Source: an uncultured Enterobacteriaceae bacterium
Lineage (GTDB): Bacteria > Desulfobacterota > Binatia > UBA12015
NCBI GenBank assembly: GCA_964529315.1
Contig: CAZGUU010000001.1
Span: 2,902 to 66,901 of the forward strand
Length of the DNA stretch: 64,000 nt
Direction of reading: 5' to 3'
Of this stretch, positions 12,762 to 54,967 are shown one piece after another. How positions within the stretch are numbered: position 1 is the first letter of the stretch; every line of letters starts with the position of its first letter. Both the position numbers and the translations under genes were made by a program. The notes beneath the pieces are model-generated. The model saw only the letters and a list, made by a program, of their open reading frames with translations, made no database searches and had not been told where the DNA came from.

Positions 12762-14273
12762 ATGTCCGGGCCGATGCGCGCCTACGCCGACGAGACGATC
12801 GCCGCAGTCGCCACACCGGCGGGTGTAGGCGCGATCGCCGTCGTCCGCATGAGTGGTCGCTTGGCGCTGGACGTCGCCGCGCGCGTTCTCGTTCGGCGCG
12901 ACGCCCTGCGTCCTGTCGCGCGCCTGCGCGACTCGCACCGAGCACGCATCGCCCGCATCTGGGATCCCGAGACCCACCAGATCTTGGACGAAGTCCTCGT
13001 CCTGCCGATGCTCGCACCGCGCAGCGCCACCGGTGAGGACGTGGTCGAGATCCACTGCCACGGCGGGCCATTGGTGTCCGATCTGATCCTGCGTGCCCTG
13101 CTGCGGGCGGGCGCCAGGGCTGCCCGCCCAGGCGAGTTCACGGAGCGCGCTTTCTTGAACGGTCGCATCGACCTCTGCCAGGCCGAGGCGGTCGCAGATC
13201 TCATCGCCGCCAGAAGCGACGCGGGTCTGGATTCAGCCCGCCTGCAGCTCGAGGGCCGGCTGTCGCAGACCATCGCCTCGTTGCGCGAGCGCATCGTGGA
13301 GGCGCGCGCCCTGACCGAAGCTTACCTCGACTTCAGTGACGAGGACCTCCCCGAGAGCGAGCGCGCGGAGTTGCTCGACGCCATCGCGTCCCTGCGTCAC
13401 GACGCTCGCGAGCTTGGGAGCAGCTATCGGCGCGGACGCCTCGCCAGAGAGGGCCTACGAATCGCCCTGGCCGGCAAGCCCAACGTCGGCAAGTCCTCCC
13501 TACTCAACAGCCTCCTCGGCCGCGAGCGCGCGCTGGTCAGCTCCGTCCCGGGGACCACGCGCGACTACCTCGAGGAGCCGCTGGCCATCGGCACGCTAGG
13601 CGCGCTTCTCTGCGACACGGCCGGGCTACGCTCAGCCGTCGATCCGGTCGAGCTGGCCGGTGTCACGCGAGCCGCGGAGAGGATCCGTGAGGCGGACGTC
13701 ATTCTCGTCGTCCTCGACGGCTCTGTCGCCCTGGACGCCGACGACCGCCTTGCGCTGCAGCCGACCAGCGGCGGACCACCGAGAATCGTCCTGCGCAACA
13801 AGGCGGACCTTCCGGCGGTGTGGACCTGGCCCGAGGCCGAGAGCTTTTTCGGGATCGGCTCGGGCAGAGACGAAGCCTCTCGTGAGGCCGAGTGCAGCGA
13901 CTCGGCAGGCCGGCAGTCAAGGCTGCCCGCGGCGAGCAGGCGCGACCCCGTCGCGGCATCCCTCGACGTATCGGCCAAGACGGGAGAGGGGATCGCCGAG
14001 CTCTGCCGTGCAATCCAGAGCACGATCCTGCCTGCTGCGGACACGAGCTGCGCGGAGCGCCCGAGCATCACGCGGGCGCGCCACGAGAGCGCTCTCGGTC
14101 GGGCGGTCGAGCTGCTCGAGGGCGCGGAGCGTCGGGTCCGGGAGTGGGCGGAGCTCGACCTGGCGGCGATCGACCTCAGCGCCGCCACGTTGGCCCTCGA
14201 CGCCCTTCTCGGCACGATCCACGACGAGGAGGTGCTCGACGCGATCTTCCGCAGGTTCTGCGTCGGCAAGTGA
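12762..14273 (+). CDS. mnmE: tRNA modification GTPase MnmE
   Basis: GTPase motifs [21 protein letters not shown]-terminal CVGK. Start trimmed to MSGPMRAY; an ATG at 12774 is also possible. About 30 extra residues between G4 and G5. Confidence 0.9.
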
Positions 14274-14291
14274 CCTCGGCCTCTTCCCCGG

Positions 14292-14307
14292 AGTTTCACG
14301 TGGAACA
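14292..14307. promoter_or_regulatory. parS: parS-like site AGTTTCACGTGGAACA (14/16 to TGTTTCACGTGAAACA), overlapping the GTG start codon of mnmG
   Basis: Seen directly. It is the reverse complement of the site at 16931-16946. Confidence 0.6.
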
Positions 14308-16171
14308 CTATGACGTCATCGTCGTCGGAGCGGGGCACGCAGGCATCGAGACGGCGCTCGCGGCAGCGCGCTTGGGTGCCCGGACGCTTCTGCTGACCCA
14401 GAATCTCGATCAAATCGGCCAGATGTCGTGCAACCCAGCCATAGGCGGTGTGGGCAAGGGGCATCTCGTCAAGGAGATCGATGCGCTCGGCGGAGAGATG
14501 GCCCTGGCGATCGACGCCTGCGGGATCCAGTTCCGCACACTGAACACCCGCAAGGGTCGGTCCGTCCAGGCGACACGGGCACAGGCAGACAAAGCAGCCT
14601 ACCGGCGGTACATGAAGGCTGCGGTCGAGCGGACGCCAGCTCTGACGGTCAGCCAGGCGACGGTAGAGCAGCTCCACGTCGAGGCTGGGGTGGCTCGCGG
14701 CGTCGAGACCACGCTCGGCGATTCCTTCCTGGCGCGCGCCACGGTGCTGACGACGGGGACCTTCCTGGGGGGATCGATCCACGTCGGTGACCGCTCGTTC
14801 CCGGGCGGTCGCGCCGGAGACCCGGCGAGCCACGGCTTGACCCCCCAGCTCGTCTCACTCGGCTTCGAGGTGGGTCGCCTGAAGACGGGAACCTGCCCGC
14901 GACTCGATGGCCGAACCATCGATTTCGCAGCCCTCGAAGCTCAGCCTTCGGACCCTTCGCCCGTCCCCTTCTCCTTCCGGACGACCCGGATCGGGCAGCC
15001 CCAGGTCCCCTGCCACATCACCTTCACGACCGCCGAGACCCACCGCCTGATCGCCGCGAACCTGGCGCGATCGGCCATGTTCAGCGGCCAGATTCGCGGT
15101 CGCGGGCCGCGCTACTGCCCATCCGTCGAGGACAAGATCGCGCGCTTCCCCGATCGACAGCGGCACCAGGTGTTTCTCGAGCCCGAGGGCCTCGACACGG
15201 TCGAGGTCTACCCCAACGGCCTCTCCACATCGCTGCCGCTCGACGTGCAACGCGCCATGGTGCGCACGATCCCGGGCCTCGAGAACGCGCAGATCACGCG
15301 ACCTGGCTATGCCGTCGAGTATGACTTCGTCGACCCGCTCGAGCTGGGCCCCAGCCTGGAGACGAAGCGGGTCCGTGGCCTCTATCTCGCGGGTCAGATC
15401 AACGGCACGACGGGCTACGAGGAAGCCGCCGCCCAGGGGCTCGTCGCTGGCGTCAACGCCGCCCGGGCCTCGCGCTCAGAGCCACCGATCGTCCTGGGGC
15501 GCGAGAGCAGCTACATCGGCGTGCTGATCGACGATCTGGTCACCAAAGGGGTCGGCGGCGAGCCCTATCGCATGTTCACCTCGCGCGCAGAGCACCGCCT
15601 GCTGCTGCGGGAGGACAACGCCGACCAGCGTCTGAGCCCGCTCGGCCGCGAAATCGGCCTCCTCGATTCCGCTACGTCCGACCTGGTCGAGGCGAGAAGA
15701 GCGGCAGCCGCCGGTCTTCGCGAGATGCTCGAAGGAGCGGCGCTCGCCCCCACACCGCAGATCAGCGCGATATTGGTCACCCACGGTCTCACGGCACTGC
15801 GCAAGCCGAGCTCTCTCGCGGAGGTCTTGCGACGTCCCGGGGCAGATTGGCGGGTGGTCGAATCGCTGGGTTTCGCGGTCTCCGAGGACCCGCGGGTTCG
15901 CGACCAAGTTCTCCTCGACGTGAAGTACCACGGATACGTCACTCGCCAGGAGGAGATCGTCCACCAGCTCCGCCGCATGGAGGATGCCGAGGTTCCGGCG
16001 ACAACCGATTTCGCCGCGATCGATGGGCTCTCGACCGAGGTCCGAGAGAAGCTGTCCCGGGTCCAGCCGCGTACCATTGGCCAGGCCACTCGAATCCCGG
16101 GCATCACTCCGGCCGCCGTCTCGCTCCTGCGCATCCACCTCGTGCGAGCGCAACGTTCACGGCAGAGCTAA
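14300..16171 (+). CDS. mnmG: tRNA uridine 5-carboxymethylaminomethyl modification enzyme MnmG (GidA)
   Basis: GTG start giving [17 protein letters not shown] (FAD-binding GxGxxG). Strong homology through the whole length. The upstream in-frame extension of the ORF track is low-complexity. Confidence 0.9.
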
Positions 16172-16180
16172 GACTCTCGA

Positions 16181-16942
16181 GTGCCCGCCCGAAGGCTCGA
16201 TGGGCAGAGCCCCGCTCATGCGCGCTCTACGAGGGCACGCCGGCGCGGCCCCCTTTCGCTCGACGGCGAGCGGGTGCGCATGCTGCGCCAGGTGGCCGAG
16301 CAGCTGGGCGTGGCGATCGATGATCGGGCGCTCGCCGAGCTGGGAGCCTATCTCGTCGAGCTCGACCACTGGTCTCGGCACGTGAACCTGGTTTCGCAGC
16401 GCGACCTGGAGCGCTTCGTCGAACGCCACATCGTCGACTCGCTGGTCGGTGCGCCCGCGCTGGCCGGTCTGGGCTCGTCTCTGGAAATCGCCGACATTGG
16501 AAGTGGCAACGGCTTGCCGGGCGTGCCGCTGGCCATCGTGCTTCGTCCCCGGCGGATGCTGCTCGTGGAGGCTCGCCGCAAGCGCGCCAGCTTCTTGCGC
16601 GCCGTGGCTCGCCGCCTGAGCGATGTCCCGCTCGAAGTTCGCAACGTCCGAGCCGAGAACCTGGCCACCTCCGAGCCCGCCACCCTCGACGCCGTGGTCA
16701 GCCGTGCAGCCATCCCTGTCTCGTCGCTGCTCGCGATTGCCGGTCGCCTACTGAGGCCCGGCGGCCTGCTGATCCTTCACCGGGAACTGGAGGCTTCGCT
16801 GCCGGACCCGGGCCGGTCGCTGGTGATCCCTCAGGGTCTTGGCGACCCGCAGTTCGACGGCCCGAGCGCGCTGCGACACGATATCGAGCACGCAGCTCGC
16901 ACTCCGACCTGCGTCGTCTGGCGGCGGCAACGTTCCACGTGA
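16181..16942 (+). CDS. rsmG: 16S rRNA (guanine527-N7)-methyltransferase RsmG (GidB)
   Basis: SAM motif IADIGSGNGLPGVPLAI. The GTG at 16181 follows the mnmG stop by 10 nt. The first 33 aa are Arg-rich and low-complexity, so the true start may be the ATG at 16280 (MLRQVAEQLG). Confidence 0.8.
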   Translation: MPARRLDGQSPAHARSTRARRRGPLSLDGERVRMLRQVAEQLGVAIDDRALAELGAYLVELDHWSRHVNLVSQRDLERFVERHIVDSLVGAPALAGLGSSLEIADIGSGNGLPGVPLAIVLRPRRMLLVEARRKRASFLRAVARRLSDVPLEVRNVRAENLATSEPATLDAVVSRAAIPVSSLLAIAGRLLRPGGLLILHRELEASLPDPGRSLVIPQGLGDPQFDGPSALRHDIEHAARTPTCVVWRRQRST

Positions 16943-16946
16943 AACA
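16931..16946. promoter_or_regulatory. parS: parS-like site CGTTCCACGTGAAACA (14/16 to consensus), containing the rsmG TGA stop codon
   Basis: Seen directly. Its 14-nt core is identical to the reverse complement of the site at 14292-14307. Confidence 0.6.
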
Positions 16947-17135
16947 CCCGAGCGATTAAGACCGATCCAGCCCGCCCGCAGCTCGACGCGGCAGGTGCAT
17001 CCGCCTCCGCCAGGCCAGCTACGAGCCCGCCAGAAGACGTGCAGGGCGGGGCTGCAACGGGCGGCTCGAGCTCTCGTGCGCCACCTCCCGGGCGTTCCGA
17101 GAAGCCCTCGGAGCGATGCTCGACCGGGCGCTTTC

Positions 17136-17176
17136 TGTGCGGCGCGCAAATCTGCTAGTGAGCGGCGCGCAGCACA
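17136..17176. promoter_or_regulatory. Inverted repeat TGTGCGGCGCGC..(17 nt)..GCGCGCAGCACA ending on the parA ATG; a candidate operator or 5'-UTR hairpin
   Basis: Arms 17136-17147 and 17165-17176 are reverse complements with one mismatch. Confidence 0.35.
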
Positions 17177-17946
17177 TGGGACGCGTCATTGCCATCGTGA
17201 ACCAGAAGGGCGGTGTGGGGAAGACGACCACCGCCGTGAACCTCGCCGCCGCACTCGCCATGACGGGTCAGGCGGTCCTGCTGGTCGACGTGGATCCCCA
17301 GTGTAGCGCGACCAGCGGCGTGGGCATTCGCGCCGGCGAGGGAGAGCCCTCCACATACGACCTGCTCCTCGGCCATGCGTCTGCCGAGGGAGCGCTACGC
17401 AAGACCATGCTGCCCGGCCTCCAGGTCCTGGCTGCGAGCCGCGACCTGGTTGGCGCCGAGATCGAGCTCGTGACGGCCGAGGCCCGAGAGCACCGCCTCA
17501 AAGAGGCGCTGGCCGCCGTACGCTGGCGGTACAATTTCGTCCTGGTGGACTGCCCACCCTCGCTCGGACTCGTCACACTGAATGCTCTGACCGCCTGCGA
17601 CTCGCTGCTGATCCCCCTGCAGTGCGAGTACTACGCGCTCGAGGGGCTGACGGCGCTCCTCGAGACGGTGGGTCTGGTCCGCGAGAGCTTGAACCCGGAA
17701 CTCGCCATCGAAGGCCTGCTGCTCACCATGTTCGATGGACGCAACACGCTCTGCCGTCAGGTCGCGGAGGACGTCCGCAGCCACTTCCAAGAAAAGGTCT
17801 TCACGACCATCATCCCGCGCAATGTCCGCTTGAGCGAGAGCCCGAGCCACGGACTCCCGGCACAGCTCTACGACCCATCGTCGCGAGGTGCGATCGCCTA
17901 CGGCGAGCTGGCTCGGGAGGTGATTGCCAACAGCCGAGATTCATAG
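17176..17946 (+). CDS. parA: Chromosome partitioning ATPase ParA (Soj)
   Basis: Start trimmed to MGRVIAIVNQKGGVGKTTTAVNLAAALA (deviant Walker A). 256 aa. Confidence 0.92.
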   Translation: MGRVIAIVNQKGGVGKTTTAVNLAAALAMTGQAVLLVDVDPQCSATSGVGIRAGEGEPSTYDLLLGHASAEGALRKTMLPGLQVLAASRDLVGAEIELVTAEAREHRLKEALAAVRWRYNFVLVDCPPSLGLVTLNALTACDSLLIPLQCEYYALEGLTALLETVGLVRESLNPELAIEGLLLTMFDGRNTLCRQVAEDVRSHFQEKVFTTIIPRNVRLSESPSHGLPAQLYDPSSRGAIAYGELAREVIANSRDS

Positions 17947-17962
17947 AACCGTGTTTTGATTC

Positions 17963-18895
17963 TTGGGGGACTCCATGCGGCAAGCTCTCGGCAAAGGTAT
18001 CGGCGCTCTGATTCCATCGGCAACCACCCGTACTCGCCAGGCGGGATCCGCGCCGATCGAGGCAGGACAGCATCGGGCACACGGCAGCGTGCAGCAGATC
18101 CCCATCGCCGCCGTCTCTTTGAATCCCCGTCAGCCGCGCCAGCACTTCGAGCAGAGCGAGCTCGACGACCTCGGCCGCTCCGTGGCCTTGCACGGCATCC
18201 TGCAGCCGATCCTCGTACGCCCTCTTGCCGACGGCCGCTTCGAGCTGATCGCCGGCGAACGCCGGCTGCGCGCGGCGCGTCTCGCAGCGCTCGAGACCAT
18301 CCCGGCCGTCGTCAAGCAGGCCGACGACGCTGCGAGCCTGGTCCTGGCAATCGTCGAGAACGTCCAGCGTGCCGACCTCTTTCCCCTGGAGGAGGCCCGA
18401 GCCTATCGCGAGCTGATGCGCGAGTTCTCCCTCACCCAGGAGCAGGTGGCCGAGCGGGTCGGCAAGAGCCGTCCTGCGGTGGCCAATACGCTCCGCCTGC
18501 TCCAGCTACCCGAAGAGGTCCAGGCCGATCTCGCCGCCGGCCGCATCACCGCCGGGCACGCCCGTGCGCTTCTCGCCCTCGAAACCGACGCCGCACGCGT
18601 CGCCTTCGCGCGCGAGATCGCCAACCGTCGGCTCTCCGTGCGCCAAGCGGAGCACGAGGCCGCCCGCTCCCGCCCTGCCCCGTCCCCCCCCGCCTCCATC
18701 GATCCCGACCTCGCCCGCATCGAGTCGGATCTCGGCCGCGCCCTGGGCACCAAGGCCTCCGTCCGCCTCTCCCGTGGTGCAAAGGGAGGCGGTCACATCG
18801 AGCTCGCCTTCTACTCCGACGACGACCTCGCCCGGCTCTGCGACTTGCTCCTGGCCAGCGCGACCCACAAGGCCCCGCGAGCCCACCGCGCCTGA
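17963..18895 (+). CDS. parB: Chromosome partitioning protein ParB
   Basis: N-terminal LGKGIGALI. ParB box GERRLRAARLA (CTP-binding motif). An HTH and a C-terminal dimerisation region. Confidence 0.92.
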   Translation: MGDSMRQALGKGIGALIPSATTRTRQAGSAPIEAGQHRAHGSVQQIPIAAVSLNPRQPRQHFEQSELDDLGRSVALHGILQPILVRPLADGRFELIAGERRLRAARLAALETIPAVVKQADDAASLVLAIVENVQRADLFPLEEARAYRELMREFSLTQEQVAERVGKSRPAVANTLRLLQLPEEVQADLAAGRITAGHARALLALETDAARVAFAREIANRRLSVRQAEHEAARSRPAPSPPASIDPDLARIESDLGRALGTKASVRLSRGAKGGGHIELAFYSDDDLARLCDLLLASATHKAPRAHRA

Positions 18896-18954
18896 GAGCC
18901 GCGCAGGCTCGCCGCGGACGCGCATCCGTCCGCCTAATGAGTCCTGTCCCCATT

Positions 18955-18983
18955 TTGACATCCCCGCTTCTCGGTGGTAGCCA
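18955..18983 (+). promoter_or_regulatory. Sigma70-like promoter candidate (TTGACA, 17 nt, TAGCCA) upstream of the bactofilin gene
   Basis: Seen directly. The -10 is weak, so the call is tentative. Confidence 0.3.
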
Positions 18984-19066
18984 GGCGCGTTTGTGGCGCG
19001 GGCTGCGCCGCCCCTCCCAGGATGCGGAGCTGCGGCGAGCGTGTGCCACCTTTGCGAGATCATCGG

Positions 19067-19681
19067 ATGGCTCTCTTCAAGAAGGACCGGGATCGTGGCG
19101 AGCTCCCCAGAGCGGCGGAAGCCGAGCGGGTCCGTTCGGGCCCAGTCGAGCCGGCCCCCTCTGATGCTTCGCCGGTCGGACAACGAGCGGAGCGCGCGGG
19201 GGTGAGCATGGCTTCGTCCTACACGTCGACTGCCGAGAAGAGTCTCGATGCTGGCACCGCTCAGGCGAGCGCTTTCCTGGGCCGCGGCACTCGTGTCTCG
19301 GGCAAGGTCGCCTTCGAAGGTCCGGCCCGCATCGAGGGTCAGCTCGAGGGCGAGGTGATCGCCAACGATTCGCTGCTCGTCGGTGAGTCGGCTCTGCTCA
19401 ATGCACAGATCACCGGCGCAACGGTGGTGATCCACGGCAAGGTCACGGGCGACATCCACGCCACCAAGCGCCTGGAGATCCGCGCACCGGGACGGGTCTA
19501 CGGGAACGTCACGACGCCCAGCCTGGTGATCGAGGAAGGCGTCGTCTTCGAGGGCCACTGCTCGATGGGCGCAAGCGAGAGCCGCGGCACCAAGGTGACC
19601 CTGCTCGCCAAGGAAGAGAAGGCCGCTCCGGTCACCGCGGCTCCACCGACCACGCTCAAGGCCCAAGGCGACCTGAAGTAG
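19067..19681 (+). CDS. Bactofilin (BacM-like) immediately downstream of parAB
   Basis: DUF583 beta-helix repeats GTRVSGKVAFEGPARIEGQLEGEV.. and TGDIHATKRLEIRAPGRVYGNV. The N-terminus MALFKKDRDRG matches the bactofilin membrane-targeting MxxFxKK-type motif. An ATG at 19208 with a strong GGGGGTGAG RBS is an alternative start. Confidence 0.8.
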   Translation: MALFKKDRDRGELPRAAEAERVRSGPVEPAPSDASPVGQRAERAGVSMASSYTSTAEKSLDAGTAQASAFLGRGTRVSGKVAFEGPARIEGQLEGEVIANDSLLVGESALLNAQITGATVVIHGKVTGDIHATKRLEIRAPGRVYGNVTTPSLVIEEGVVFEGHCSMGASESRGTKVTLLAKEEKAAPVTAAPPTTLKAQGDLK

Positions 19682-21464: not shown

Positions 21465-21540
21465 GCCGCGCCCAGCCAGCCACGCTCGCGCCCGAAACCA
21501 TCGCGTCAACGAGAGACAGGCGGAAGAGGAGAAGTAGCAG

Positions 21541-25399
<3,859 letters not shown>

Positions 25400-47002: not shown

Positions 47003-47031
47003 ACGGGTTACCCCTCTGCCGGCAAGAGGTT

Positions 47032-47185
47032 ATTCACAGGAATGTGCACACCTGTGGATGATCGAATATTCCACCCGAATTCCGGTGGTTTGCACCCACC
47101 AGCGCCAGGCCATTTTCACCTCGAACGACACTCTCTGAAGGGCGCCCGTTGGTTCGTGTTCCGGGACGGGCGGCCGAGATCCACA
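47032..47185. promoter_or_regulatory. DnaA-box-like motifs in the dnaA 5' region (autoregulation and/or a second oriC candidate), followed by an A-rich stretch at 47200-47400
   Basis: TTATTCACA (47032-40, 8/9). TGTGGATGA, which is the reverse of TCATCCACA (47055-63, 8/9). AGATCCACA (47177-85, 7/9). Confidence 0.45.
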
Positions 47186-47409
47186 CCGTGAGAAAACAAT
47201 GAGCCGTGGGATGCGAGAAAATGTCGTGCCTGCAGGCGCGAGGGCGCTTCTCTAGCGCCCGACCTTTCGCAGTTGCAAGAAGAAAAGCGAAAGCAGATGA
47301 GAAAGCTCCCGATATTGCACGAGAAAAAACTTCCGAGCGCGATTTCCTTGACGCTGCTGCGGGAGGTTGGTAAGCGCCGGTCTCCCTTTTCCCCATTGGA
47401 CATCGCAAC

Positions 47410-48690
47410 TTGCGAGAGGCATCACGAAAACTGCTGGCCCGCGCATCGCGGGTGTTGCCAGCTGGGGTAAACAGCCCGGTTCGCGCGTGGCGCGCGGTGG
47501 GAGGCGATCCCCCCTTCATCATTCGCGGTGAGGGAGTGCGCGTCGTCGATGCCGACGGCAACTCCTACCTCGATCTCGTCGGCGCCTGGGGCCCGCTCGT
47601 TGCGGGGCACGCGCCACCTCCCGTGGTCGCCGCGGTAGTCGAAGCCGTGCGGCGGGGAGCCGGCTTTGGTGCGCCGACACCCGTCGAGGTCGATCTCGCG
47701 GAGCGAGTGACGCAAGCCTTTCCCACGATCGAGAGGTTGCGTCTCGTCACCTCCGGAACCGAGGCGACGATGACCGCGATCCGCATCGCGCGGGCTGCGA
47801 CGGGCCGGTCGCGGCTGATCAAGTTCAATGGCTGCTATCACGGTCACAGCGACGACCTCTTGGTGCGCGCGGGGTCCGGCGCGGCGACGTTTGGGATCCC
47901 AGACAGCGCGGGCGTGCCCGAGGAGGCATCGCGGCTGACCAGCGTCGTGGAATACAACGATCTCCCCGGATTCCGTTCGGCCGTGCGAGAGGGGGCCCCG
48001 GTGGCGGCGGTGATCCTGGAGCCGATCGCCGCCAACATGGGGGTCGTTCCCCCGGAGCCCGGCTTTCTGGAGGGAGTCGTCGAGGCGGCACACGACCAGG
48101 GTGCGCTGGTGATTTTCGACGAGGTGATCTCGGGATTCCGGGTGGCGCGTGGTGGGGCACAGCAACTCTACGGCGTCGCGGCCGATCTCACCTGCCTCGG
48201 CAAGATCATCGGCGGCGGCTTGCCGGTCGGAGCGGTGGGCGGCCGAGCCGAGTTGCTCGATCTCCTTGCTCCGCTCGGGCCCGTCTACCAGGCGGGCACT
48301 CTCGCCGGAAACCCCGTGGCGTGTGCCGCCGGGTACGCGACACTGGAGTTGCTCACACCGGAGGCATACGCACGGCTCGAGGAGGCCGGGGCTTTTCTCG
48401 AGCGCGCCCTGAGAGGCGCGCTCGAGGATTCGTCGGTGATCGGCTGCGTGCAGCGCGCGGGCTCTCTTCTCACCATCTTTTTCGGGGTCGAGCGGGTGCG
48501 GAACTTCGTCGAGGCACAAGCCTGCGATACTGCGGCTTTCGCCCGCTTCTTCCGGAGGATGTTCGAGCGAGGCGTATACCTTCCGCCGTCTCAGTTCGAG
48601 GCGTGGTTCCTGAGCCTCGCGCATCGGCAAGAAGACCTCGATGAAATCGTGGCGGCTGCCCGTTCGAGCCTCGCTGGATCGAACGGTTGA
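47410..48690 (+). CDS. hemL: Glutamate-1-semialdehyde 2,1-aminomutase
   Basis: TTG start. ASRKLLARASRVLPAGVNSPVRAW aligns with the E. coli HemL N-terminus. PLP lysine context GKIIGGGLPVGA. Confidence 0.92.
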   Translation: MREASRKLLARASRVLPAGVNSPVRAWRAVGGDPPFIIRGEGVRVVDADGNSYLDLVGAWGPLVAGHAPPPVVAAVVEAVRRGAGFGAPTPVEVDLAERVTQAFPTIERLRLVTSGTEATMTAIRIARAATGRSRLIKFNGCYHGHSDDLLVRAGSGAATFGIPDSAGVPEEASRLTSVVEYNDLPGFRSAVREGAPVAAVILEPIAANMGVVPPEPGFLEGVVEAAHDQGALVIFDEVISGFRVARGGAQQLYGVAADLTCLGKIIGGGLPVGAVGGRAELLDLLAPLGPVYQAGTLAGNPVACAAGYATLELLTPEAYARLEEAGAFLERALRGALEDSSVIGCVQRAGSLLTIFFGVERVRNFVEAQACDTAAFARFFRRMFERGVYLPPSQFEAWFLSLAHRQEDLDEIVAAARSSLAGSNG

Positions 48691-48956
48691 GTTCTTCGCC
48701 GGCCGTGCCCCAAGGTAAGCAGCCGACGCCCGCCCAGCGGCGGCGTGAGCTGGCGATCCAGATGACGGCGCTCGGCCTCGAGTTTTCCGGGTCCGTTCTC
48801 GGCGGGCTCGGGCTGGGCTACTACCTCGACCAGTGGCTCGGGACGGAGCCGTGGTTGCTGATCCTTGCGACCTTCGGAGGCATGGGAGCCGCGGTGAGCC
48901 GCCTGATCGTGCTGACGAAGCGCTTTCAGCGGATTCGTGGGGATGGTGAGCGCTGA
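48687..48956 (+). CDS. atpZ: AtpZ-family small membrane protein encoded ahead of atpI
   Basis: LGLGYYLDQWLGTEPWLLILATFGGMGAAV matches the AtpZ DxWLGT motif. TTG start overlapping the hemL stop. An ATG at 48762 is an alternative start. Confidence 0.65.
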   Translation: MSSSPAVPQGKQPTPAQRRRELAIQMTALGLEFSGSVLGGLGLGYYLDQWLGTEPWLLILATFGGMGAAVSRLIVLTKRFQRIRGDGER

Positions 48957-49332
48957 AGAGCCGCGCATGGCCGGAGGCACGCCACGCGTCCTTCTCTGGC
49001 AGGCTCTCTTGACCGTCATTCTCGTGGGCGTTGTGGGTGCCAGCGGCCGGGGTTCCCCGGCCAGCGTGGCGCTCGGGGCGGCCTTGCTCGGGGGAAGCTT
49101 CCTCTTGCAAAGGTGGGCCGTCTCGGCCGCGCTGCGTGCACGGCCCCGGCCCGCGCTAGCGGTCGGCCTCTTCCTGCTGAAGCTCGGACTGCTGCTCGGC
49201 TTGGTGCTGGCGGGTCTGGGAAGCTCTCGGGTCGCCCCGATCTCCCTGGCGGCCGGGGCAACTACGCTGTGGCTCGCGATTCTCGTTGAGACATGCTACT
49301 GCGCCCGCCTGTCCCACGGTCGGGACGCCTGA
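48937..49332 (+). CDS. atpI: ATP synthase protein I (AtpI)
   Basis: 131 aa, four hydrophobic segments, immediately upstream of atpB. GTG start. An ATG at 48967 is an alternative start. Confidence 0.65.
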   Translation: MGMVSAEEPRMAGGTPRVLLWQALLTVILVGVVGASGRGSPASVALGAALLGGSFLLQRWAVSAALRARPRPALAVGLFLLKLGLLLGLVLAGLGSSRVAPISLAAGATTLWLAILVETCYCARLSHGRDA

Positions 49333-49363
49333 CGACTTCGTCGAGGAAGGCCTCGAAATCCGA

Positions 49364-50071
49364 ATGGAACACCCGTTCACCTGGACGTACGCCCTGGGAA
49401 TCCCCCAGCATTTCGAGTACTTCGCTGTGGCCTGCCTGGTCATGGGGGTCGTGCTCCTACTCGCCTTTCGTGCCCGAGCGGCGCTCGGGAGCGAGGCAGC
49501 GGTGGTCCCGGACGAGACGCTGACGGCGCGAAACGTCTTCGAGCTGGTCACCGAGGCGATCGGCGGCCTTGCTCACAGCGTGATTGGCCACCACAGCGAG
49601 CGCTACGTGCCGCTTCTGTGCTCGTTCTTCCTGTACATCTTAGCCTGCAACGCGATGGGCCTGCTGCCGGGCCTGATGCCGCCGACGAGCAATTTCAACA
49701 TCACCTTCGCGCTCGGGACGGTGTCCTTTCTCGCCTTCAACTACTACGGATTTCGCGCCCAGGGAGTCGCCTACCTCAAGCACTTCGCCGGCCCGATCTG
49801 GTGGTTGGCCGTCCTGATGGTCCCGCTGGAGCTCATCGGAGCGCTGGTGCGGCCGTTCTCGCTTGGCTTGCGTCTCTTCGGCAACCTCTTCGGCGACCAC
49901 CTCGTGCTGGAGATCTTCACCAGCCTGACCAAGGTCGGAGTCCCCGTGGTCTTCTATCTCCTGGGTAGCCTCGTCGTGGTGATCCAGGCATTCGTCTTCA
50001 CTCTGCTGAGCATGATCTACATCGCGCTGGCCGTCTCGCATCACGACGAGGCGGTCGCGGACATGCTGTAG
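49364..50071 (+). CDS. atpB: F0F1 ATP synthase subunit a
   Basis: Trimmed to MEHPFTWTYALGIPQ. Conserved LRLFGNLFGDHLVL (the essential Arg). Confidence 0.92.
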   Translation: MEHPFTWTYALGIPQHFEYFAVACLVMGVVLLLAFRARAALGSEAAVVPDETLTARNVFELVTEAIGGLAHSVIGHHSERYVPLLCSFFLYILACNAMGLLPGLMPPTSNFNITFALGTVSFLAFNYYGFRAQGVAYLKHFAGPIWWLAVLMVPLELIGALVRPFSLGLRLFGNLFGDHLVLEIFTSLTKVGVPVVFYLLGSLVVVIQAFVFTLLSMIYIALAVSHHDEAVADML

Positions 50072-50185
50072 GTCGCGGCTCTAGTCTACGCAGCTCGAAG
50101 GCCGTGGGCGTGGTGTGGCGAGGATGAGGACAGAGGAGTGCCCATCGAGCGGCCGCGGGCGGGCGGGAAAGGAGGAAAGAAGCTC

Positions 50186-50518
50186 ATGATCAGATCGACC
50201 CTCAAGGGCGCGCTCGTAGCGCTCTTCACCGTGGCCTTTGCCGTTCTGGGCCAGTCCACGGCGTTTGCAGCCGACGCTGCCGCGGGCGGCGGCGACAAGG
50301 CGATGATCGCCCTTGCTGCCGGCATCGCCATCGCCGGCGCCGCCATCGGCGCCGCCATCGGACAAGGGCGTGCCGTCGCGGCCGCCATGGAGTCGATCGG
50401 CCGCAATCCCAACGCGGCAGATCGAATCCAGACGCCGATGATCCTCGGCCTCGCGTTCATCGAGGCCCTGGCGATCTACGCTCTCGTGATCGCCTTCTTG
50501 CTCCAGGGCAAGATCTGA
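50186..50518 (+). CDS. atpE: F0F1 ATP synthase subunit c, with a roughly 38-aa signal-peptide-like N-terminal extension
   Basis: Mature-like core [46 protein letters not shown] (loop RNP, carboxylate E). Extension [38 protein letters not shown], with the strong RBS AAAGGAGGA before the ATG at 50186. Confidence 0.88.
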
Positions 50519-50547
50519 GGGCTCTCGAGTCACCGACGTGAACAAAC

Positions 50548-50588
50548 GATCGCCCCGCCGGCGTTGCTGGCGGGGCGATCGCGTTTCC
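50548..50588 (+). terminator. Rho-independent terminator after atpE: a 12-bp perfect GC stem (GATCGCCCCGCC / GGCGGGGCGATC), 9-nt loop, then GCGTTTCC
   Basis: Seen directly, 30 nt after the atpE stop. Confidence 0.6.
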
Positions 50589-50654
50589 GGCCGAGGCCGG
50601 TACGTTGGAACCCCCTTGTCCAGGCCCGAACCAGGGCCCCGGGCCCCACGCCCA

Positions 50655-50682
50655 TTGACAGCTACGGGGGCGGCCGTCTAAT
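50655..50682 (+). promoter_or_regulatory. Sigma70-like promoter (TTGACA, 16 nt, TCTAAT) for the ParB paralogue
   Basis: Seen directly, 66 nt upstream of the GTG at 50749. Confidence 0.45.
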
Positions 50683-50748
50683 GGGGCGGCCACGGCGACT
50701 GGCCTCGCGAGGGCGTAGGCCTACAGGACGGGTGGAGGGGGTGCTGTT

Positions 50749-51783
50749 GTGGAGAACGCAGCCTGGTCCCGGACCGCTCGAGAGCTACCGGCCGGAGCCC
50801 CACGCGGGGGCGATGCACAGCAGGTCGCCGATAGCCCCGCGGGCGACCTCGAGCCAGCGGGTGCTCTGGCAGTCTCGCTAGCTGCCAAGAAGGATGTGGT
50901 GCCCGCGGTTGCCCGAGTCGCCGCAGCCGGGCACTTCATCGGGCGCCGCCGGACGTTCTTCGCCGCGGTCCCCATCGCGTTAGTCAAGCCGAACCCGCAC
51001 CAGCCGCGGCAGTACTTCGACCCGACCTCTCTGGCCGAGTTGGCCGAGTCGATCCGCGAGAGGGGCCTGCTGCAGCCGATCATCGTTCGCCGAGGGCCGG
51101 ATGGCGAATACACGCTGGTCGCCGGGGAGCGCCGACTCCGGGCAGCCGAGCTGGCCGGGGTTGCCCTGGTCCCGGCGATCCTGAGCGACGACGACCTGCT
51201 CGAGGTGGCTCTCGAAGAGAACGTGCAACGGGAGGATCTCTCGCCCCTGGAGGAGGCCGAGGCTCTGGCGGTGCTCGCACAGGAGCGCGGCCACTCCCAT
51301 GCCGAGCTGGCGCAGGTGATCCACAAGAGCCGCCCGTACGTCTCCAATACGTTGGCGCTCACCCGCCTGCCCGACGACGTGAAACACGAGTATTTCAGAG
51401 AGGGTAGGACTGTTTCGCGCGAGATCATGATCAATATCGCCCGCCAGGAGAGCCCCGAGCAGATGCGATCCCTATGGCGGCGGGTGAAGCTTCAGTCGAT
51501 TTCGGTGCGCAGCTTCCGAAGCGCCGAGCAGGGAAAGACGACGGCGTCTCCCGAGGCGGGCATCCTGCGCTCTGCGAGACGACTGGATCGAGCGCTGCGG
51601 TCGCTCCCCGAGGAGGCGAGGCTCAACCGCGACCAGGTCGTCGGCCTCGAGCGCGCGCTGCGGCGTACGATTCGCAGGGCCGCGGCGCTGGTCGACGAAC
51701 TCGCCTCCGGGATCCGCACCGTGGAGGGTCCCGCCGACCATTGCCCCCCGAAGCTGCAGCCACGCCGAGCGGGAGGAGAATGA
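50749..51783 (+). CDS. Orphan ParB/Srx-family protein: ParB N-domain with GERRLRAA and an HTH, but a C-terminus unlike ParB and no adjacent ParA
   Basis: VPIALVKPNPHQPRQYF..LLQPIIVRR..LVAGERRLRAAELAG..VALEENVQREDLSPLEEAEA..HKSRPYVSNTLAL aligns block-for-block with the ParB at 17963. GTG start with RBS GGAGGGGG. Confidence 0.8.
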   Translation: MENAAWSRTARELPAGAPRGGDAQQVADSPAGDLEPAGALAVSLAAKKDVVPAVARVAAAGHFIGRRRTFFAAVPIALVKPNPHQPRQYFDPTSLAELAESIRERGLLQPIIVRRGPDGEYTLVAGERRLRAAELAGVALVPAILSDDDLLEVALEENVQREDLSPLEEAEALAVLAQERGHSHAELAQVIHKSRPYVSNTLALTRLPDDVKHEYFREGRTVSREIMINIARQESPEQMRSLWRRVKLQSISVRSFRSAEQGKTTASPEAGILRSARRLDRALRSLPEEARLNRDQVVGLERALRRTIRRAAALVDELASGIRTVEGPADHCPPKLQPRRAGGE

Positions 51784-51911
51784 TCCGAGCTACCCCAGCC
51801 GGTGATTCGTTCGGCTCGAGCTGGTTCACCCCTTACGGGCGCTAGGAGCGGGCTGAAGAGAGTGACATGCCCGGCCGAAAGAGGTAACAGGGCCAAGCGG
51901 GGGAGGAGACC

Positions 51912-52502
51912 ATGGGAGCGCGGAGATCCGTCGGGTTCGGCCTGATCTGCCTTTGGATGTGGCTCGCCGGAGCGGCTGGCGCCGCGGCGCAGGGCGACGG
52001 CGGAGTCGGCTGCGAGGGGATCTCTCCCGAGCGACCGTACCTCTGCGACGTGGGTGATCCGAAGCCTTTGTCGCTGCAGAGCTTCCGCACCATCCTGTCG
52101 ACCAATGAAGCGGTGCGCGACACGGTCGCGCGGATCGGCATGCCAGACTTCGCCGAGCTGCAGAGGGTCGACGTCGAGTCGCCCTGGGCGAGCTACGAAA
52201 TCCGCGCCTACTATCGCTCATTCAACAAGATGTACGCCTTCGCGCGTGCCTTCCTCCTGGGCAGACCGGGTGTTGCGCTGGTCCGCTTCACCGGACCGAT
52301 CCCGCCCGAGAAGCGCGCGCAAATGGCTGGTGCACTGCCCGCTCGCGCCGCTCTCGATCCGGAGCAGGAGGCGCTGCGAGCCGAGCGCGCGGCGGCAGAG
52401 GCCGAGGCGCTCGCCGAGCGGGCCGAGAAGAGGGCTGACAAGGCGGAAGCCATCGCCGACACGGCAGGCCGGGAGTTCCGGCAAAGCCTGGTGAAGCAGT
52501 AG
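51912..52502 (+). CDS. Hypothetical secreted protein with a C-terminal Ala/Glu/Arg-rich coiled coil
   Basis: Strong RBS GGGGGAGGAG. Signal peptide MGARRSVGFGLICLWMWLAGAAGAAAQG. Two Cys (GCEGISPERPYLCD). Confidence 0.6.
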   Translation: MGARRSVGFGLICLWMWLAGAAGAAAQGDGGVGCEGISPERPYLCDVGDPKPLSLQSFRTILSTNEAVRDTVARIGMPDFAELQRVDVESPWASYEIRAYYRSFNKMYAFARAFLLGRPGVALVRFTGPIPPEKRAQMAGALPARAALDPEQEALRAERAAAEAEALAERAEKRADKAEAIADTAGREFRQSLVKQ

Positions 52503-53532: not shown

Positions 53533-53970
53533 TCAGGCGCGCTTGCGCGCGCCCCGGTCGCGAACCGTGATCGAGTGGCGCTTGCCGTTCACTCGGCGGA
53601 ACGGGAAGCGATAGACGTGCGCCTTGCCGCTGACCCTCTCGTCCCGCCATGCGCGGAGACCGTTTCGCAGGGTCTCCGGCTCGAAGCGCAGAGCAGAGCA
53701 GACGTTCTCGAAAGAGTAGGGCCAGCTGGTGTCGGTCGAGTTGATCCACTGCTCGGCATCTTCGAACAGCTTTTGATTGCGCCGGCTTGGCTCCGTCGCG
53801 TAGCGCTGATACGTGGCGACGGCGTCCTCCATCACGGCCAGCATCAACCGGATCTCGGGCTGATCGGTCCGCTCGGCCCGAACCCTGTCCCGATGCTGGT
53901 CGGGAGTGATCAGATCCGGCTCGAAAAGACGGACGACGTTCTCTTCGGCTACCGAGTTGGTTGGGTCCAT
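53533..53970 (-). CDS. Hypothetical protein (145 aa) with a basic C-terminus
   Basis: Trimmed to an ATG with RBS GGGGAGG (MDPTNSVAEENVV..). GC3-rich codons. Family not recognised. Confidence 0.5.
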   Translation of the reverse strand: MDPTNSVAEENVVRLFEPDLITPDQHRDRVRAERTDQPEIRLMLAVMEDAVATYQRYATEPSRRNQKLFEDAEQWINSTDTSWPYSFENVCSALRFEPETLRNGLRAWRDERVSGKAHVYRFPFRRVNGKRHSITVRDRGARKRA

Positions 53971-54072
53971 GAAGCCTCCCCTTGGCTGAGGTTCGTCATC
54001 ATGCACCTCGCGTGCCAGCCCAGATCTCCGCATGGAGGGCCCGCGACGTTGAAAGTCAGGCCGAGGCGTGTT

Positions 54073-54101
54073 GGATTGTGACAACCTGTAGGATTGCGAC
54101 A
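54073..54101. repeat. Direct repeat GGATTG(T/C)GACA, two copies 18 bp apart, in the divergent intergenic region; the first copy contains the palindrome TTGTGACAA
   Basis: Seen directly: 54073-54083 and 54091-54101. Confidence 0.4.
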
Positions 54102-54115
54102 TCTGGAAGTCCCTC

Positions 54116-54646
54116 GTGACCAACTCGTCAGAAGCTGCCAAGAAGGCGCCTCCCCCACCGACGCTGAGCCGGCTCGCGGCGGAGGCTCTCATCGAGACTA
54201 TCGACGGTCCGGTGGAGATCGTTAAGCTCGTGGGCAAGACCATCCCGGTCCTGACGCGCCTCGGGGACGGCTCGCTCGGCTTCCGGATGATGCGCGAGGT
54301 CCGCCAGATCGAGTCCGACGACCCCCTTCTCGAGGTGGAGAGCTCGGATGGCCAGACCGTGAGGGTGGGGTCGGACCACGTCTTCGTGCGGGTGGATGGA
54401 TCCGACGTGCGCGCGGCCGATCTCGTCGTCGGCGAGCTACTCGAGCCAGCCTGGAGCTATCCGGAGGGCTACGCTTTCCCCGACGCTCCGGAATACGCTC
54501 CGGCGCTGCGCGGGCGCCCGTTCGACCGAGCCGTGCTGGTCGCGGCGGTCCGCCCTGCCGGTAGCGGCCCGCTGTTCGGATCGAGCGTCAGCGAGACAAA
54601 GAGCTACTTCCTTGCCTTGGGTGCACGGGCTCGGGCGCAGGTTTGA
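54116..54646 (+). CDS. Hypothetical protein (176 aa) with weak resemblance to the N-terminal half of a Hint (intein/Hedgehog) fold; the catalytic residues appear substituted
   Basis: GC3-rich coding. ALIETIDGPVEIVKLVG resembles intein block A (C-L-x-x-D-T..DG..V.I.ELV) but with Ala in place of Cys1. GQTVRVGSDHVFVRVDGSDVRAADLVVGELL resembles block B (TxxH...G.W..A.EL..GD). GTG start with a weak RBS. Confidence 0.5.
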   Translation: MTNSSEAAKKAPPPPTLSRLAAEALIETIDGPVEIVKLVGKTIPVLTRLGDGSLGFRMMREVRQIESDDPLLEVESSDGQTVRVGSDHVFVRVDGSDVRAADLVVGELLEPAWSYPEGYAFPDAPEYAPALRGRPFDRAVLVAAVRPAGSGPLFGSSVSETKSYFLALGARARAQV

Positions 54647-54661: not shown

Positions 54662-54967
54662 TCAGCCTCCGCCCAGCCGGCTCAAGAGCCGCTCGAACGC
54701 CGCGCGGCGTTCGGGGTCGCCTAGCGTCGCAAGCGCGTCTGCATCGAACCAGGAGCCGTGGCCTGCGGCACATACCAGGGCGCGCAGCGGCCCTTCCTCG
54801 ACGCGCTCGAGCTTGCTCGAGCATCTCGGGCAGGAAATCGTCTCGGCCTCCTCAGAGGCGCGCAGCTTCTCGAGCAGCTCGCGATCTCGCTTGGCGAAGT
54901 ACTGGTCCTCGCGCGCCTGCTCGAGATCGCGCAGCTTGTCACCCCAGCGATCCTTCTCGGAATCCAC
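54662..54967 (-). CDS. Small zinc-ribbon protein (zf-TFIIB-like CPxC..C..GxWxD) with an N-terminal charged helix
   Basis: CPRCSSKLERVEEGPLRALVCAAGHGSWFDADAL. GTG start, no clear RBS. Sits 19 nt downstream of the small membrane ORF on the same strand. Confidence 0.5.
   Translation of the reverse strand: MDSEKDRWGDKLRDLEQAREDQYFAKRDRELLEKLRASEEAETISCPRCSSKLERVEEGPLRALVCAAGHGSWFDADALATLGDPERRAAFERLLSRLGGG

What the first reader, a model, noticed from the sequence alone, without database searches (positions are those of the whole stretch)
50749..51783. Orphan ParB paralogue with an intact CTP-binding motif, no ParA partner, a divergent C-terminus and its own sigma70-like promoter
The N-domain and HTH align block-for-block with the canonical ParB at 17963, including GERRLRAA, so CTP binding and parS-type DNA recognition are plausible. 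The last 110 aa show no similarity to the ParB dimerisation domain, and there is no adjacent ParA. The protein could be a second centromere-binding protein, a nucleoid-occlusion-like factor or a regulator. A parS half-site GTGAAACA occurs inside its own coding sequence at about 51361.
Basis: partly seen in the sequence, partly recalled or inferred. Interest (0 to 1): 0.55.

Follow-up and report, generated by a model that had tools for sequence, protein, structure and literature searches.

The report
Origin-linked orphan ParB paralogue
This is a real, conserved second copy of the chromosome-partitioning protein ParB, encoded about 3.7 kb from the replication origin in Binatia-type bacteria; it keeps the CTP switch and DNA-binding fold but has lost the ParA-contact peptide and has a different tail, so it most likely acts as a ParA-independent DNA clamp on an unknown target, which is interesting but not very surprising.

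Summary
The ORF at 50749..51783 (+) is a genuine ParB-family gene. It has ParB_N and HTH_ParB domains and is 48% identical to the canonical ParB at 17963 over 142 aa. Box I, II and III residues are invariant in 120 homologues.

It defines a family of at least 120 sequence clusters whose named members are Candidatus Binatia or 'Deltaproteobacteria' MAGs. In 7 of 8 loci fetched, plus one gene table without DNA, it sits in the same place: gyrB-dnaN-dnaA | hemL-atpZ-atpI-atpB-atpE-parB2. The same contigs also carry a canonical ParB.

The family differs from canonical ParB in three ways:
- **ParA-binding motif:** present in 0 of 120 orphans and 37 of 38 canonical ParBs.
- **C-terminus:** no homology to the ParB dimerisation domain; AlphaFold2 predicts an Arg-rich two-helix hairpin.
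- **DNA-contact positions:** family-wide substitutions (Q162 to H, G170 to H, R/K at 184, non-Gly at 201).

The core is under strong purifying selection (dN/dS about 0.1). A terminator-like hairpin follows atpE, and a conserved TTGACA box supports a separate promoter. The 'parS half-site' lies at 51379-51386, not 51361. It occurs at chance level and is not conserved in homologues.

Best reading: a neofunctionalised, ParA-independent, CTP-dependent DNA clamp with a non-parS target, analogous to Noc, KorB or BisD. The target and function are unknown. I rate it a new variant of a known kind, of moderate interest.

The parts
50749..51783 (+). parB2: orphan ParB-family paralogue, 344 aa, GTG start
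   Evidence: ORF. Domains. An identical protein, P0001, is in NCBI. dN/dS of the core is 0.10-0.13 against orthologues.
50547..50581 (+). Terminator-like GC hairpin after atpE (16-bp stem, then CGCGTTTCC)
   Evidence: Inverted repeat, 94% complementary. RNA fold -51.3 kcal/mol, z -4.3. An equivalent hairpin followed by GTTTC or GTATC is present in L087 and L088.
50655..50682 (+). Promoter-like TTGACA-16 nt-TCTAAT
   Evidence: Read from the sequence. TTGACA/TTGACT is conserved in L001, L002, L006, L087 and L088, and the TCTAA-like -10 in L087 and L088. The strict scanner did not call it.
50730..50778 (+). Purine-rich ribosome-binding region plus the first ~10 codons (V-E-N-A-A-W-S-R-T), conserved in close relatives
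   Evidence: Nucleotide block conserved with L087 and L088 while the next ~40 codons diverge. The peptide is shared by P0002, P0003, P0004 and P0008.
50749..50913 (+). Variable N-terminal extension (aa 1-55); aa 1-48 predicted disordered; coding status of this part is less certain
   Evidence: pLDDT below 50 for aa 1-48. GC3 is 0.69 against 0.85 in the core, and dN/dS is about 0.6. In-frame alternative GTG codons lie at 50896 and 50899, after AAGAAGGA.
50914..50955 (+). Family-specific N-terminal motif R-[FLV]-A-x-A-G-x-[VIL]-[FI]-G-R-R-R-T directly before strand beta1; it occupies the N-terminal position where canonical ParB has its LG[KR]GL ParA-binding peptide
   Evidence: Column counts in 120 homologues: G61 113, R68 109, T69 113. 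The ParA motif is found in 0/120 orphans and 37/38 canonical ParBs.
50962..51228 (+). ParB N-terminal (CTPase) domain, aa 72-160
   Evidence: PF02195, E 1.5e-27. Foldseek matches ParB, Noc and KorB structures at E about 1e-15.
50992..51012 (+). Box I, NPHQPRQ (aa 82-88)
   Evidence: N82, Q85, P86 and R87 present in 119/120.
51124..51147 (+). Box II, GERRLRAA (aa 126-133)
   Evidence: G126, E127, R128, R129 and R131 present in 120/120.
51214..51237 (+). Box III, EENVQRED (aa 156-163)
   Evidence: E157, Q160 and R161 in 120/120; N158 in 119/120.
51232..51516 (+). ParB-type HTH DNA-binding domain, aa 162-256
   Evidence: PF17762, E 6e-14. hhalign to the canonical ParB profile runs up to aa 259.
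51325..51360 (+). Recognition-helix segment KSRPYVSNTLAL (aa 193-204)
   Evidence: K, S, R and N invariant; T201 in 116/120. The preceding H192 replaces the conserved Gly, and H184 replaces the conserved Gln.
51379..51386 (+). GTGAAACA, the 'parS half-site' of the finding: a chance match and not a functional part
51550..51705 (+). C-terminal Arg-rich helical hairpin (helices aa 268-285 and 294-319), the putative dimerisation and/or DNA-contact module
   Evidence: AlphaFold2 block-mean pLDDT 92-96 over aa 271-320. No Pfam hit. Not aligned by hhalign. Conserved R277, L279, R281, R302, L304, R306 and L315. dN/dS 0.57-0.68.

Best explanation
parB2 is a lineage-wide duplicate of the chromosomal parB gene (Binatia-type bacteria) that has taken on a new role.

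**Shown.**
- It keeps a complete ParB CTPase domain and a ParB-type helix-turn-helix domain.
- It lacks the ParA-activating N-terminal peptide.
- It has no detectable ParB dimerisation domain. A conserved Arg-rich two-helix hairpin is predicted in its place.
- It carries family-invariant substitutions at DNA-contact positions.
- It is kept about 3.7 kb from the DnaA-box cluster, downstream of atpE, behind a terminator-like hairpin and a conserved -35 box.
- It co-occurs with a canonical ParAB-parS system.

**Inferred.**
- The protein dimerises through the C-terminal hairpins, probably as a four-helix bundle.
- It loads at a specific DNA site that is not canonical parS.
- It closes its N-terminal gate on binding CTP and slides or spreads on DNA as a clamp.
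- It acts without ParA, organising or regulating DNA in the way Noc, KorB or BisD do.

The target site and the cellular output are unknown.
For: - **Domains and motifs:**. Box I, II and III residues are invariant in 120 homologues.
- **Selection:** strong purifying selection on the core, dN/dS 0.10-0.13.
- **ParA-binding motif:** 0/120 orphans against 37/38 canonical ParBs. No ParA gene next to it in 8 loci, and only one ParA in the window.
- **C-terminus:** no ParB_C hit. hhalign stops at aa 259. AlphaFold2 predicts two confident helices at 268-285 and 294-319, with conserved Arg and Leu positions.
- **DNA-contact positions:** Q162H 120/120, G170H 95/120, R/K at 184 in 120/120, non-Gly at 201 in most (residue roles from PMC7383237).
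- **Synteny:** dnaA | hemL-atpZIBE-parB2 conserved down to about 50% identity.
- **Origin:** placed by conserved DnaA boxes and the cumulative GC-skew minimum at 44-48 kb.
- **Own transcription unit:**
Against: - No candidate binding site was found. There is no conserved palindrome in the window or the syntenic loci, and no parS/NBS hybrid or NBS site.
- C-terminal dimerisation is inferred from a monomer model only, and that region evolves fast (dN/dS about 0.6).
- Most base- and backbone-contact residues of ParB are retained, so binding to parS itself is not excluded.
- Nucleotide specificity (CTP versus ATP or GTP) cannot be read reliably from sequence, according to the 2025 survey (bioRxiv 10.1101/2025.10.10.680097).
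- No expression or functional data exist.
Confidence: 0.55

Rival explanations
1. It is a second parS-binding protein. parB2 still recognises the canonical parS sites (14292-14307 and 16931-16946) and works at the centromere as an accessory to, or competitor of, ParB without contacting ParA. It might, for example, modulate spreading or SMC loading.
For: - K171, S172, R173, N178, T179 and R204 equivalents are conserved.
- In the one-hybrid screen of PMC7383237, parS-specific variants need R at 173, tolerate nearly any residue at 179 and 184, and accept G, C, S or T at 201. The window protein has R, T, R and T at these positions.
- Two good parS sites lie 30-33 kb from the origin, on the other side from parB2.
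Against: - Q162 and G170, which contact parS and are conserved in both ParB and Noc, are replaced by His across the family.
- Position 201 is V, P or D in many members, which is outside the parS-compatible set.
- No parS lies near the gene, and the internal half-site is chance.
- The different C-terminal domain argues against heterodimers with ParB.
Confidence: 0.15
2. It is mainly a local transcription regulator, KorB- or VirB-like. It would control neighbouring genes: the atpZIBE cluster, the conserved secreted protein downstream, or dnaA/hemL. It might regulate itself. CTP could tune repression range.
For: - Tight, conserved linkage to atpE upstream and to a conserved about 190-aa secreted protein downstream.
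- Its own promoter region is conserved.
- ParB-fold regulators are known (KorB 8qa8/8qa9 appear among the structural matches; VirB and BisD papers are listed).
Against: - No conserved inverted repeat or operator-like motif in the atpE-parB2, parB2-downstream or dnaA-hemL intergenic regions.
- One subclade (P0095, L004) has left this neighbourhood.
- Conserved synteny near the origin may simply be inherited gene order.
Confidence: 0.2
3. It is a decaying or non-functional duplicate, or a gene brought in by a plasmid or prophage.
For: - The N- and C-terminal parts evolve fast (dN/dS about 0.6).
- The survey finds many orphan ParBs on mobile elements.
Against: - The ORF is intact and the core dN/dS is about 0.1.
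- Dozens of residues are invariant across 120 clusters.
- Chromosomal synteny next to dnaA is fixed.
- GC content is typical of the window.
- There is only one weak plasmid hit, to the HTH part.
Confidence: 0.03

Closest known systems
Canonical chromosomal ParB/Spo0J (TIGR00180; e.g. B. subtilis 6SDK, Caulobacter 6T1F, M. xanthus 7BNK; window copy at 17963..18895)
   Same: - ParB_N CTPase domain with Box I, II and III.
- ParB HTH with the KSRP..N-T recognition segment and the conserved Arg of GHAR.
- 48% identity over the core.
- Origin-proximal gene.
   Different: - No LG[KR]GL ParA-binding peptide.
- No parA neighbour.
- No ParB_C domain; a helical hairpin is predicted instead.
- Q162H, G170H, R/K184 and non-Gly 201.
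- A short N-motif directly abuts beta1.
Noc (nucleoid occlusion protein of Bacillota; TIGR04285; 7NFU, 7OL9)
   Same: - A chromosomal ParB duplicate that kept the CTP switch, lost ParA coupling, changed DNA specificity and coexists with ParAB.
- A basic residue at position 184.
   Different: - Scores 147 bits against a cutoff of 315.
- Specificity residues are R-T-R-x, not Q-K-K-R.
- Noc has a ParB-like C-terminus (from my own knowledge) and an N-terminal membrane-targeting helix (abstract). Neither was shown here.
- Different phylum and different gene neighbourhood.
- No NBS-like sites in the window.
KorB (RK2), BisD (ICEclc) and VirB (Shigella): ParB-fold CTP clamps used for gene regulation
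   Same: - NTD plus HTH fold: KorB 8QA8/8QA9 match at E 1e-11 to 1e-13.
- ParA-independent action.
- Non-ParB C-terminal oligomerisation modules.
   Different: - Those proteins are encoded on plasmids or ICEs and have known partners or operators. parB2 is chromosomal, origin-linked and vertically inherited.
- Sequence similarity to KorB is much lower (E 8e-17) than to ParB or Noc.
- No operator was found.
'Orphan ParB' class of the 2025 survey (bioRxiv 10.1101/2025.10.10.680097)
   Same: Fits the survey's definition: clear similarity to canonical ParB including the CTPase fold, encoded outside a parAB operon, and lacking the ParA-binding motif.
   Different: - The survey stresses orphans in lineages that lost parAB, and orphans on mobile elements. 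This family coexists with parAB and is chromosomal and syntenic.
- In the passages I read, the survey does not mention this Binatia family.

Membership tests
ParB/Spo0J family in the broad sense (TIGR00180 domain model) | ParB N-terminal domain with Box I (NPxQPR), Box II (GERRxRA) and Box III (ENxQRxDL) | tested here: met
   PF02195, E 1.5e-27. TIGR00180 153.6 bits against cutoff 58.45. Residues invariant in 120 homologues.
ParB/Spo0J family in the broad sense (TIGR00180 domain model) | ParB-type HTH DNA-binding domain | tested here: met
   PF17762, E 6e-14. hhalign probability 100% over 187 columns. Foldseek matches to ParB, Noc and KorB.
Canonical chromosomal ParB of a ParABS system | N-terminal ParA-binding motif [LIF]G[KR]G[LIF] | tested here: not met
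   0/120 orphan-family members against 37/38 canonical ParBs of related genomes.
Canonical chromosomal ParB of a ParABS system | Encoded next to parA | tested here: not met
   Neighbours are atpE and a secreted protein. There is no ParA-type family in 8 related loci. The only ParA in the window is at 17116.
Canonical chromosomal ParB of a ParABS system | C-terminal ParB dimerisation domain (PF23552) | tested here: not met
   No hit, while the canonical copy hits at E 2.7e-07. Precomputed Pfam lists lack PF23552 for all 120 listed orphans and include it for all listed canonical ParBs. hhalign ends at aa 259.
Canonical chromosomal ParB of a ParABS system | Specific binding to parS (TGTTNCACGTGAAACA) | tested here: inconclusive
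   R173, N178, T179 and R204 are kept, but Q162H, G170H, R/K184 and a variable 201 are found. No parS lies near the gene. Binding itself cannot be tested with these tools.
Canonical chromosomal ParB of a ParABS system | CTP binding and hydrolysis, and clamp closure | not testable with these tools
   Motifs are intact. The survey states that sequence cannot reliably predict nucleotide specificity.
Noc (TIGR04285) | Score above the curated family cutoff | tested here: not met
   146.9 bits against cutoff 315. The canonical ParB of the window scores higher, at 226.6.
Noc (TIGR04285) | Specificity residues Q173, K179, K184 and R201, and NBS sites | tested here: not met
   The family has R, T, R/K and a variable residue at these positions. 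There are no NBS or hybrid sites in 64 kb.
Noc (TIGR04285) | N-terminal amphipathic membrane-targeting helix | tested here: inconclusive
   A conserved hydrophobic and basic motif (RFAMAGQVFGRRRT) exists and is at the extreme N-terminus in some gene calls. AlphaFold2 gives short strand or bridge segments there, not a helix, at mean pLDDT 64-72.
KorB-type regulators | Plasmid-borne, with a KorA partner, OB operators and an SH3-like C-terminal domain | tested here: not met
   The locus is chromosomal and syntenic. The C-terminus is predicted helical. No operator-like repeat was found. A KorA partner was not searched for.

The most novel reading that the evidence does not exclude
parB2 would be the Binatia counterpart of Noc in function but not by descent. 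It would be a CTP-switched clamp that loads at its own, still unidentified sites around the origin. Through its family-specific N-terminal hydrophobic and basic peptide and its Arg-rich C-terminal bundle, it would couple the origin region to another cellular structure or process. Candidates are the membrane, the division machinery or replication initiation. That would be a second, independent invention of a ParB-derived spatial regulator in a diderm phylum.
Probability: 0.12. Interest if true: 0.6.

Novelty: new variant of a known kind. Interest (0 to 1): 0.33.

Why it matters
ParB-fold CTP switches are a young field, and only a handful of ParA-independent examples are understood (Noc, KorB, VirB, BisD). 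This family is different in origin: it is vertically inherited, origin-linked and coexists with ParABS in an uncultured phylum. It offers a natural experiment in how a centromere protein is repurposed, because the partner peptide is lost, the dimerisation module is replaced and the DNA-contact residues are retuned.

The C-terminal hairpin and the His substitutions at two otherwise universally conserved DNA-contact positions are concrete, testable differences. The practical impact is modest, because the organism is uncultured and orphan ParBs are already known to be common.

Tried and rejected
1. **Internal parS half-site.** Rejected: it is at chance frequency and is not conserved at the nucleotide level in five orthologues. 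The apparent everted partner TGTTTCGC 24 nt downstream is also explained by codons.
2. **Predicted hybrid parS/NBS site and NBS.** TGTTTCCCGGGAAACA and the NBS sequence gave no match with up to 3 mismatches in 64 kb.
3. **De novo search for conserved palindromes.** I searched 14- and 16-mers with at most 1 asymmetric pair, shared across the window and five loci. Only coding-region matches in dnaA, clpB and atpE came up.
4. **Alignments of three intergenic regions** (atpE-parB2, parB2-downstream, dnaA-hemL). They showed the promoter, terminator and DnaA boxes but no operator-like repeat.
5. **DnaA-box-like TTCTCCACA over the start codon** (50748-50756) and TGATCCACA at 51317. These are one-mismatch matches, and the first is not conserved in L087 or L088. 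Rejected.
6. **Genome-contig scan with the family alignment.** Nearly all 80 loci are canonical ParBs, so no taxonomic distribution could be drawn.
7. **C-terminal region alone against 1.8 billion representatives (phmmer).** This gave 9 hits, which were family fragments and low-complexity proteins.
8. **C-terminal profile against 5.8 billion proteins.** This gave 3 hits, all truncated family members. Candidate selection was probably swamped by Arg-rich words. No occurrence outside the family was seen, but sensitivity was poor.
9. **Plasmid tblastn with aa 200-325.** One weak hit, to the HTH part only.
10. **afdb50 fold search.** The library was unavailable.
11. **Rfam on 50300-52100.** Only sub-threshold matches, driven by the terminator hairpin.
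12. **Literature searches.** No paper found on this family.
Full report
**1. Observation**

The ORF 50749..51783 (+) encodes 344 aa from a GTG start. Pfam finds ParB_N at aa 72-160 (E 1.5e-27) and HTH_ParB at aa 162-256 (E 6e-14), and nothing else. The canonical ParB at 17963..18895 also hits the ParB_C dimerisation domain. NCBIfam's generic ParB model TIGR00180 is passed at 153.6 bits against a cutoff of 58. The Noc model scores 147 bits against a cutoff of 315, which is less than the canonical copy scores.

The two window proteins are 48% identical over aa 74-212, including GERRLRAA. Solved structures matched by sequence and by fold are ParB, Noc and KorB N-domain plus HTH fragments. The only ParA-like ORF in the 64 kb is the canonical parA at 17116..17946. 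The descriptive core of the finding is therefore correct.

**2. Corrections to the finding**

- **C-terminal boundary.** Profile-profile alignment with canonical ParBs runs to aa 259. The unrelated tail is about 85 aa, not 110.
- **Half-site.** GTGAAACA lies at 51379-51386, not 51361. It occurs twice in the window against 0.43 expected, and 8 of 100 shuffles reach that number. Orthologues read GTGAAGGA, ATCAAGCG or GTCAAGCG there. It is a by-product of the codons for D-V-K-H.
- **Real parS sites.** These are at 14292-14307 and 16931-16946, upstream of parA.
- **Promoter.** It is TTGACA (50655-50660), 16 nt, TCTAAT (50677-50682). The strict scanner did not call it. However, the -35 box is present at the same place in L001, L002, L006, L087 and L088, and the -10 is present in the close relatives.
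- **Terminator.** A 16-bp GC hairpin at 50547-50581 (z -4.3), followed by GTTTCC, sits after atpE. It is mirrored in L087 and L088. A separate transcription unit is plausible but not proven.

**3. A conserved family in a fixed location**

The word-indexed search returned more than 120 clusters at 47-77% identity. All carry ParB_N and HTH_ParB and none carries ParB_C. Named members are 'Candidatus Binatia bacterium' or 'Deltaproteobacteria bacterium' MAGs.

In seven of the eight loci fetched, the gene order is gyrB-dnaN-dnaA | hemL-atpZ-atpI-atpB-atpE-parB2, wherever the contig reaches that far. One further gene table without DNA also shows atpE directly upstream. A conserved secreted protein of about 190 aa usually follows, then an ADH-like gene and clpB (downstream protein). 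This order holds down to about 50% identity. One subclade (P0095, L004) lies elsewhere.

The dnaA-hemL spacer holds three conserved DnaA boxes. The cumulative GC skew of the window has its minimum at 44-48 kb. parB2 therefore starts about 3.7 kb from the probable origin. The canonical parS-parAB lies about 30 kb away on the other side.

Contigs that carry the orphan also carry a canonical ParB. The two are stable paralogues.

**4. What is kept**

In 120 homologues:
- Box I residues N82, Q85, P86 and R87 are present in 119.
- Box II residues G126, E127, R128, R129 and R131 are invariant.
- Box III residues E157, Q160 and R161 are invariant, and N158 is present in 119.

dN/dS for aa 56-260 against two orthologues is 0.10-0.13. 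The gene is not a pseudogene.

**5. What is changed**

**(a) ParA-binding motif.** The motif as defined in the 2025 survey ((L/I/F)G(K/R)G(L/I/F)) is found in 0 of 120 orphans and 37 of 38 canonical ParBs from related genomes. In its place the family has a conserved R-[FLV]-A-x-A-G-x-[VIL]-[FI]-G-R-R-R-T peptide that runs straight into strand beta1.

**(b) C-terminus.** AlphaFold2, run with the 120-sequence alignment, gave mean pLDDT 80. Residues 1-48 are predicted disordered. The ParB N-domain and HTH are confident. Two confident helices follow at 268-285 and 294-319 (block-mean pLDDT 92-96), and then a disordered tail.

The helices are amphipathic and Arg-rich, with conserved R277, L279, R281, R302, L304, R306 and L315. 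This region evolves faster than the core (dN/dS 0.57-0.68). I infer a dimerising four-helix bundle that may also touch DNA. This is inference from a monomer model.

**(c) DNA-contact residues.** I used the contact map of Jalal et al. 2020 (PMC7383237) and the hhalign register.
- **Kept:** K171, S172, R173, N178, T179 and R204.
- **Changed:** Q162 becomes His in 120/120 and G170 becomes His in 95/120. Both contact parS and are conserved in ParB and in Noc.
- **Changed:** R181 becomes Ala or Thr.
- **Changed:** Position 184 is always Arg or Lys, and G201 is replaced by V, T, G, P, S or D.

The register around position 201 differs between HMMER and hhalign. I prefer hhalign because it aligns the invariant Arg residues. 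The pattern argues for a family-specific DNA preference, but parS binding is not excluded.

**6. Search for the target**

I found none.
- No parS/NBS hybrid and no NBS site occur in the window.
- No palindrome is shared by non-coding regions of the window and the syntenic loci.
- The three relevant intergenic alignments show only the promoter, the terminator and DnaA boxes.

**7. Mechanism and rivals**

My best explanation (confidence 0.55) is a neofunctionalised, ParA-independent, CTP-dependent DNA clamp with a non-parS loading site and a novel dimerisation module. It would be analogous to Noc, KorB or BisD.

| Rival | Confidence | Note |
|---|---|---|
| Second parS binder | 0.15 | |
| Mainly local transcription regulator | 0.2 | Partly overlaps with the main model, as KorB shows |
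| Decaying or mobile-element gene | 0.03 | Effectively excluded |

**8. Comparison and novelty**

The protein is a member of the broad ParB/Spo0J superfamily. It fails three defining features of a canonical ParABS ParB: the ParA peptide, a parA neighbour and the ParB_C domain. It also fails the Noc and KorB membership tests.

It fits the 'orphan ParB' class that a 2025 survey describes as common and widespread. It differs from the cases stressed there by being chromosomal, syntenic, origin-linked and coexisting with parAB. Two literature searches found nothing on this family. Databases name it generically as 'ParB/RepB/Spo0J family partition protein'.

My verdict is a new variant of a known kind. 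It is of moderate interest to ParB specialists and low surprise overall.

**9. Limits**

- The taxonomic spread could not be measured. The genome scan was saturated by generic ParB patterns.
- Searches with the C-terminus alone were insensitive.
- afdb50 was unavailable.
- The true start codon is uncertain. The first about 10 codons and the ribosome-binding region are conserved in close relatives. However, aa 1-55 have weak coding statistics (GC3 0.69), and in-frame GTGs exist at 50896 and 50899.

Noticed in passing
window 14292-14307 and 16931-16946: Two near-consensus parS sites (one mismatch each). They flank the mnmG and rsmG genes (13892..16171 and 16181..16942) just upstream of parA. They are the only good parS matches in the 64 kb.
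   Followed up: partly
window 17116-19681: parA and parB are followed directly by a bactofilin gene (18974..19681, PF04519, E 1.9e-27), then atpF'-atpF-atpH-atpA. From memory, this parAB-bactofilin order is also seen with bacM in Myxococcus xanthus.
   Followed up: no
window 19823-23049 and 48687-50518: The ATP synthase genes are split into two clusters, and each cluster lies next to one of the two ParB genes. parAB-bactofilin is followed by atpF'FHA..., and atpZ-atpI-atpB-atpE is followed by parB2. I could not tell whether this is more than inherited gene order.
   Followed up: no
window 47030-47061 and 47273-47291; GC-skew minimum at 44-48 kb: The dnaA-hemL spacer carries three DnaA boxes conserved in five genomes and a conserved TTGCAAGAAGAAAAGCGAA block. 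Together with the cumulative GC-skew minimum, this marks the probable oriC.
   Followed up: partly
window 51912-52502 (+): A conserved protein of about 190 aa with a signal-peptide-like N-terminus, a conserved ERPYxCDVG...RIGMPD core and an Ala/Glu/Arg-rich helical tail. It has no Pfam family. It follows parB2 in the window, L001, L002 and L006, and a gene of matching size follows it in L087 and L088.
   Followed up: partly
window 53533-54243 (-); L005 9025-9483: A protein without a Pfam family (motifs MLAVMEDA...WPYSF...FPFRRVNGKRH). Genes of matching size and position in the syntenic loci may be homologues. In L005 a clear homologue sits immediately downstream of parB2, in place of the secreted protein.
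   Followed up: no
window 50730-50778: The ribosome-binding region and the first ~10 codons of parB2 (V-E-N-A-A-W-S-R-T) are conserved at the nucleotide level with L087 and L088, while the following ~40 codons diverge. This could be an N-terminal peptide motif or a translational control element.
   Followed up: partly
L011 5138-8452: A Gammaproteobacteria MAG contig carries a plasmid-like ParA-ParB-(Rep-like) module. Its 280-aa ParB aligns to parB2 over aa 74-316 at 33% identity and also ends in a Lys/Glu-rich stretch that looks helical from its sequence, rather than an obvious ParB_C. Helical C-termini may therefore recur in ParB-like proteins that do have a ParA.
   Followed up: no
window 54662-54967 (-): A 101-aa zinc-ribbon protein with a weak, sub-threshold resemblance to the mitochondrial ATPase inhibitor family IATP (E 0.0099). 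This is probably coiled-coil noise.
   Followed up: no
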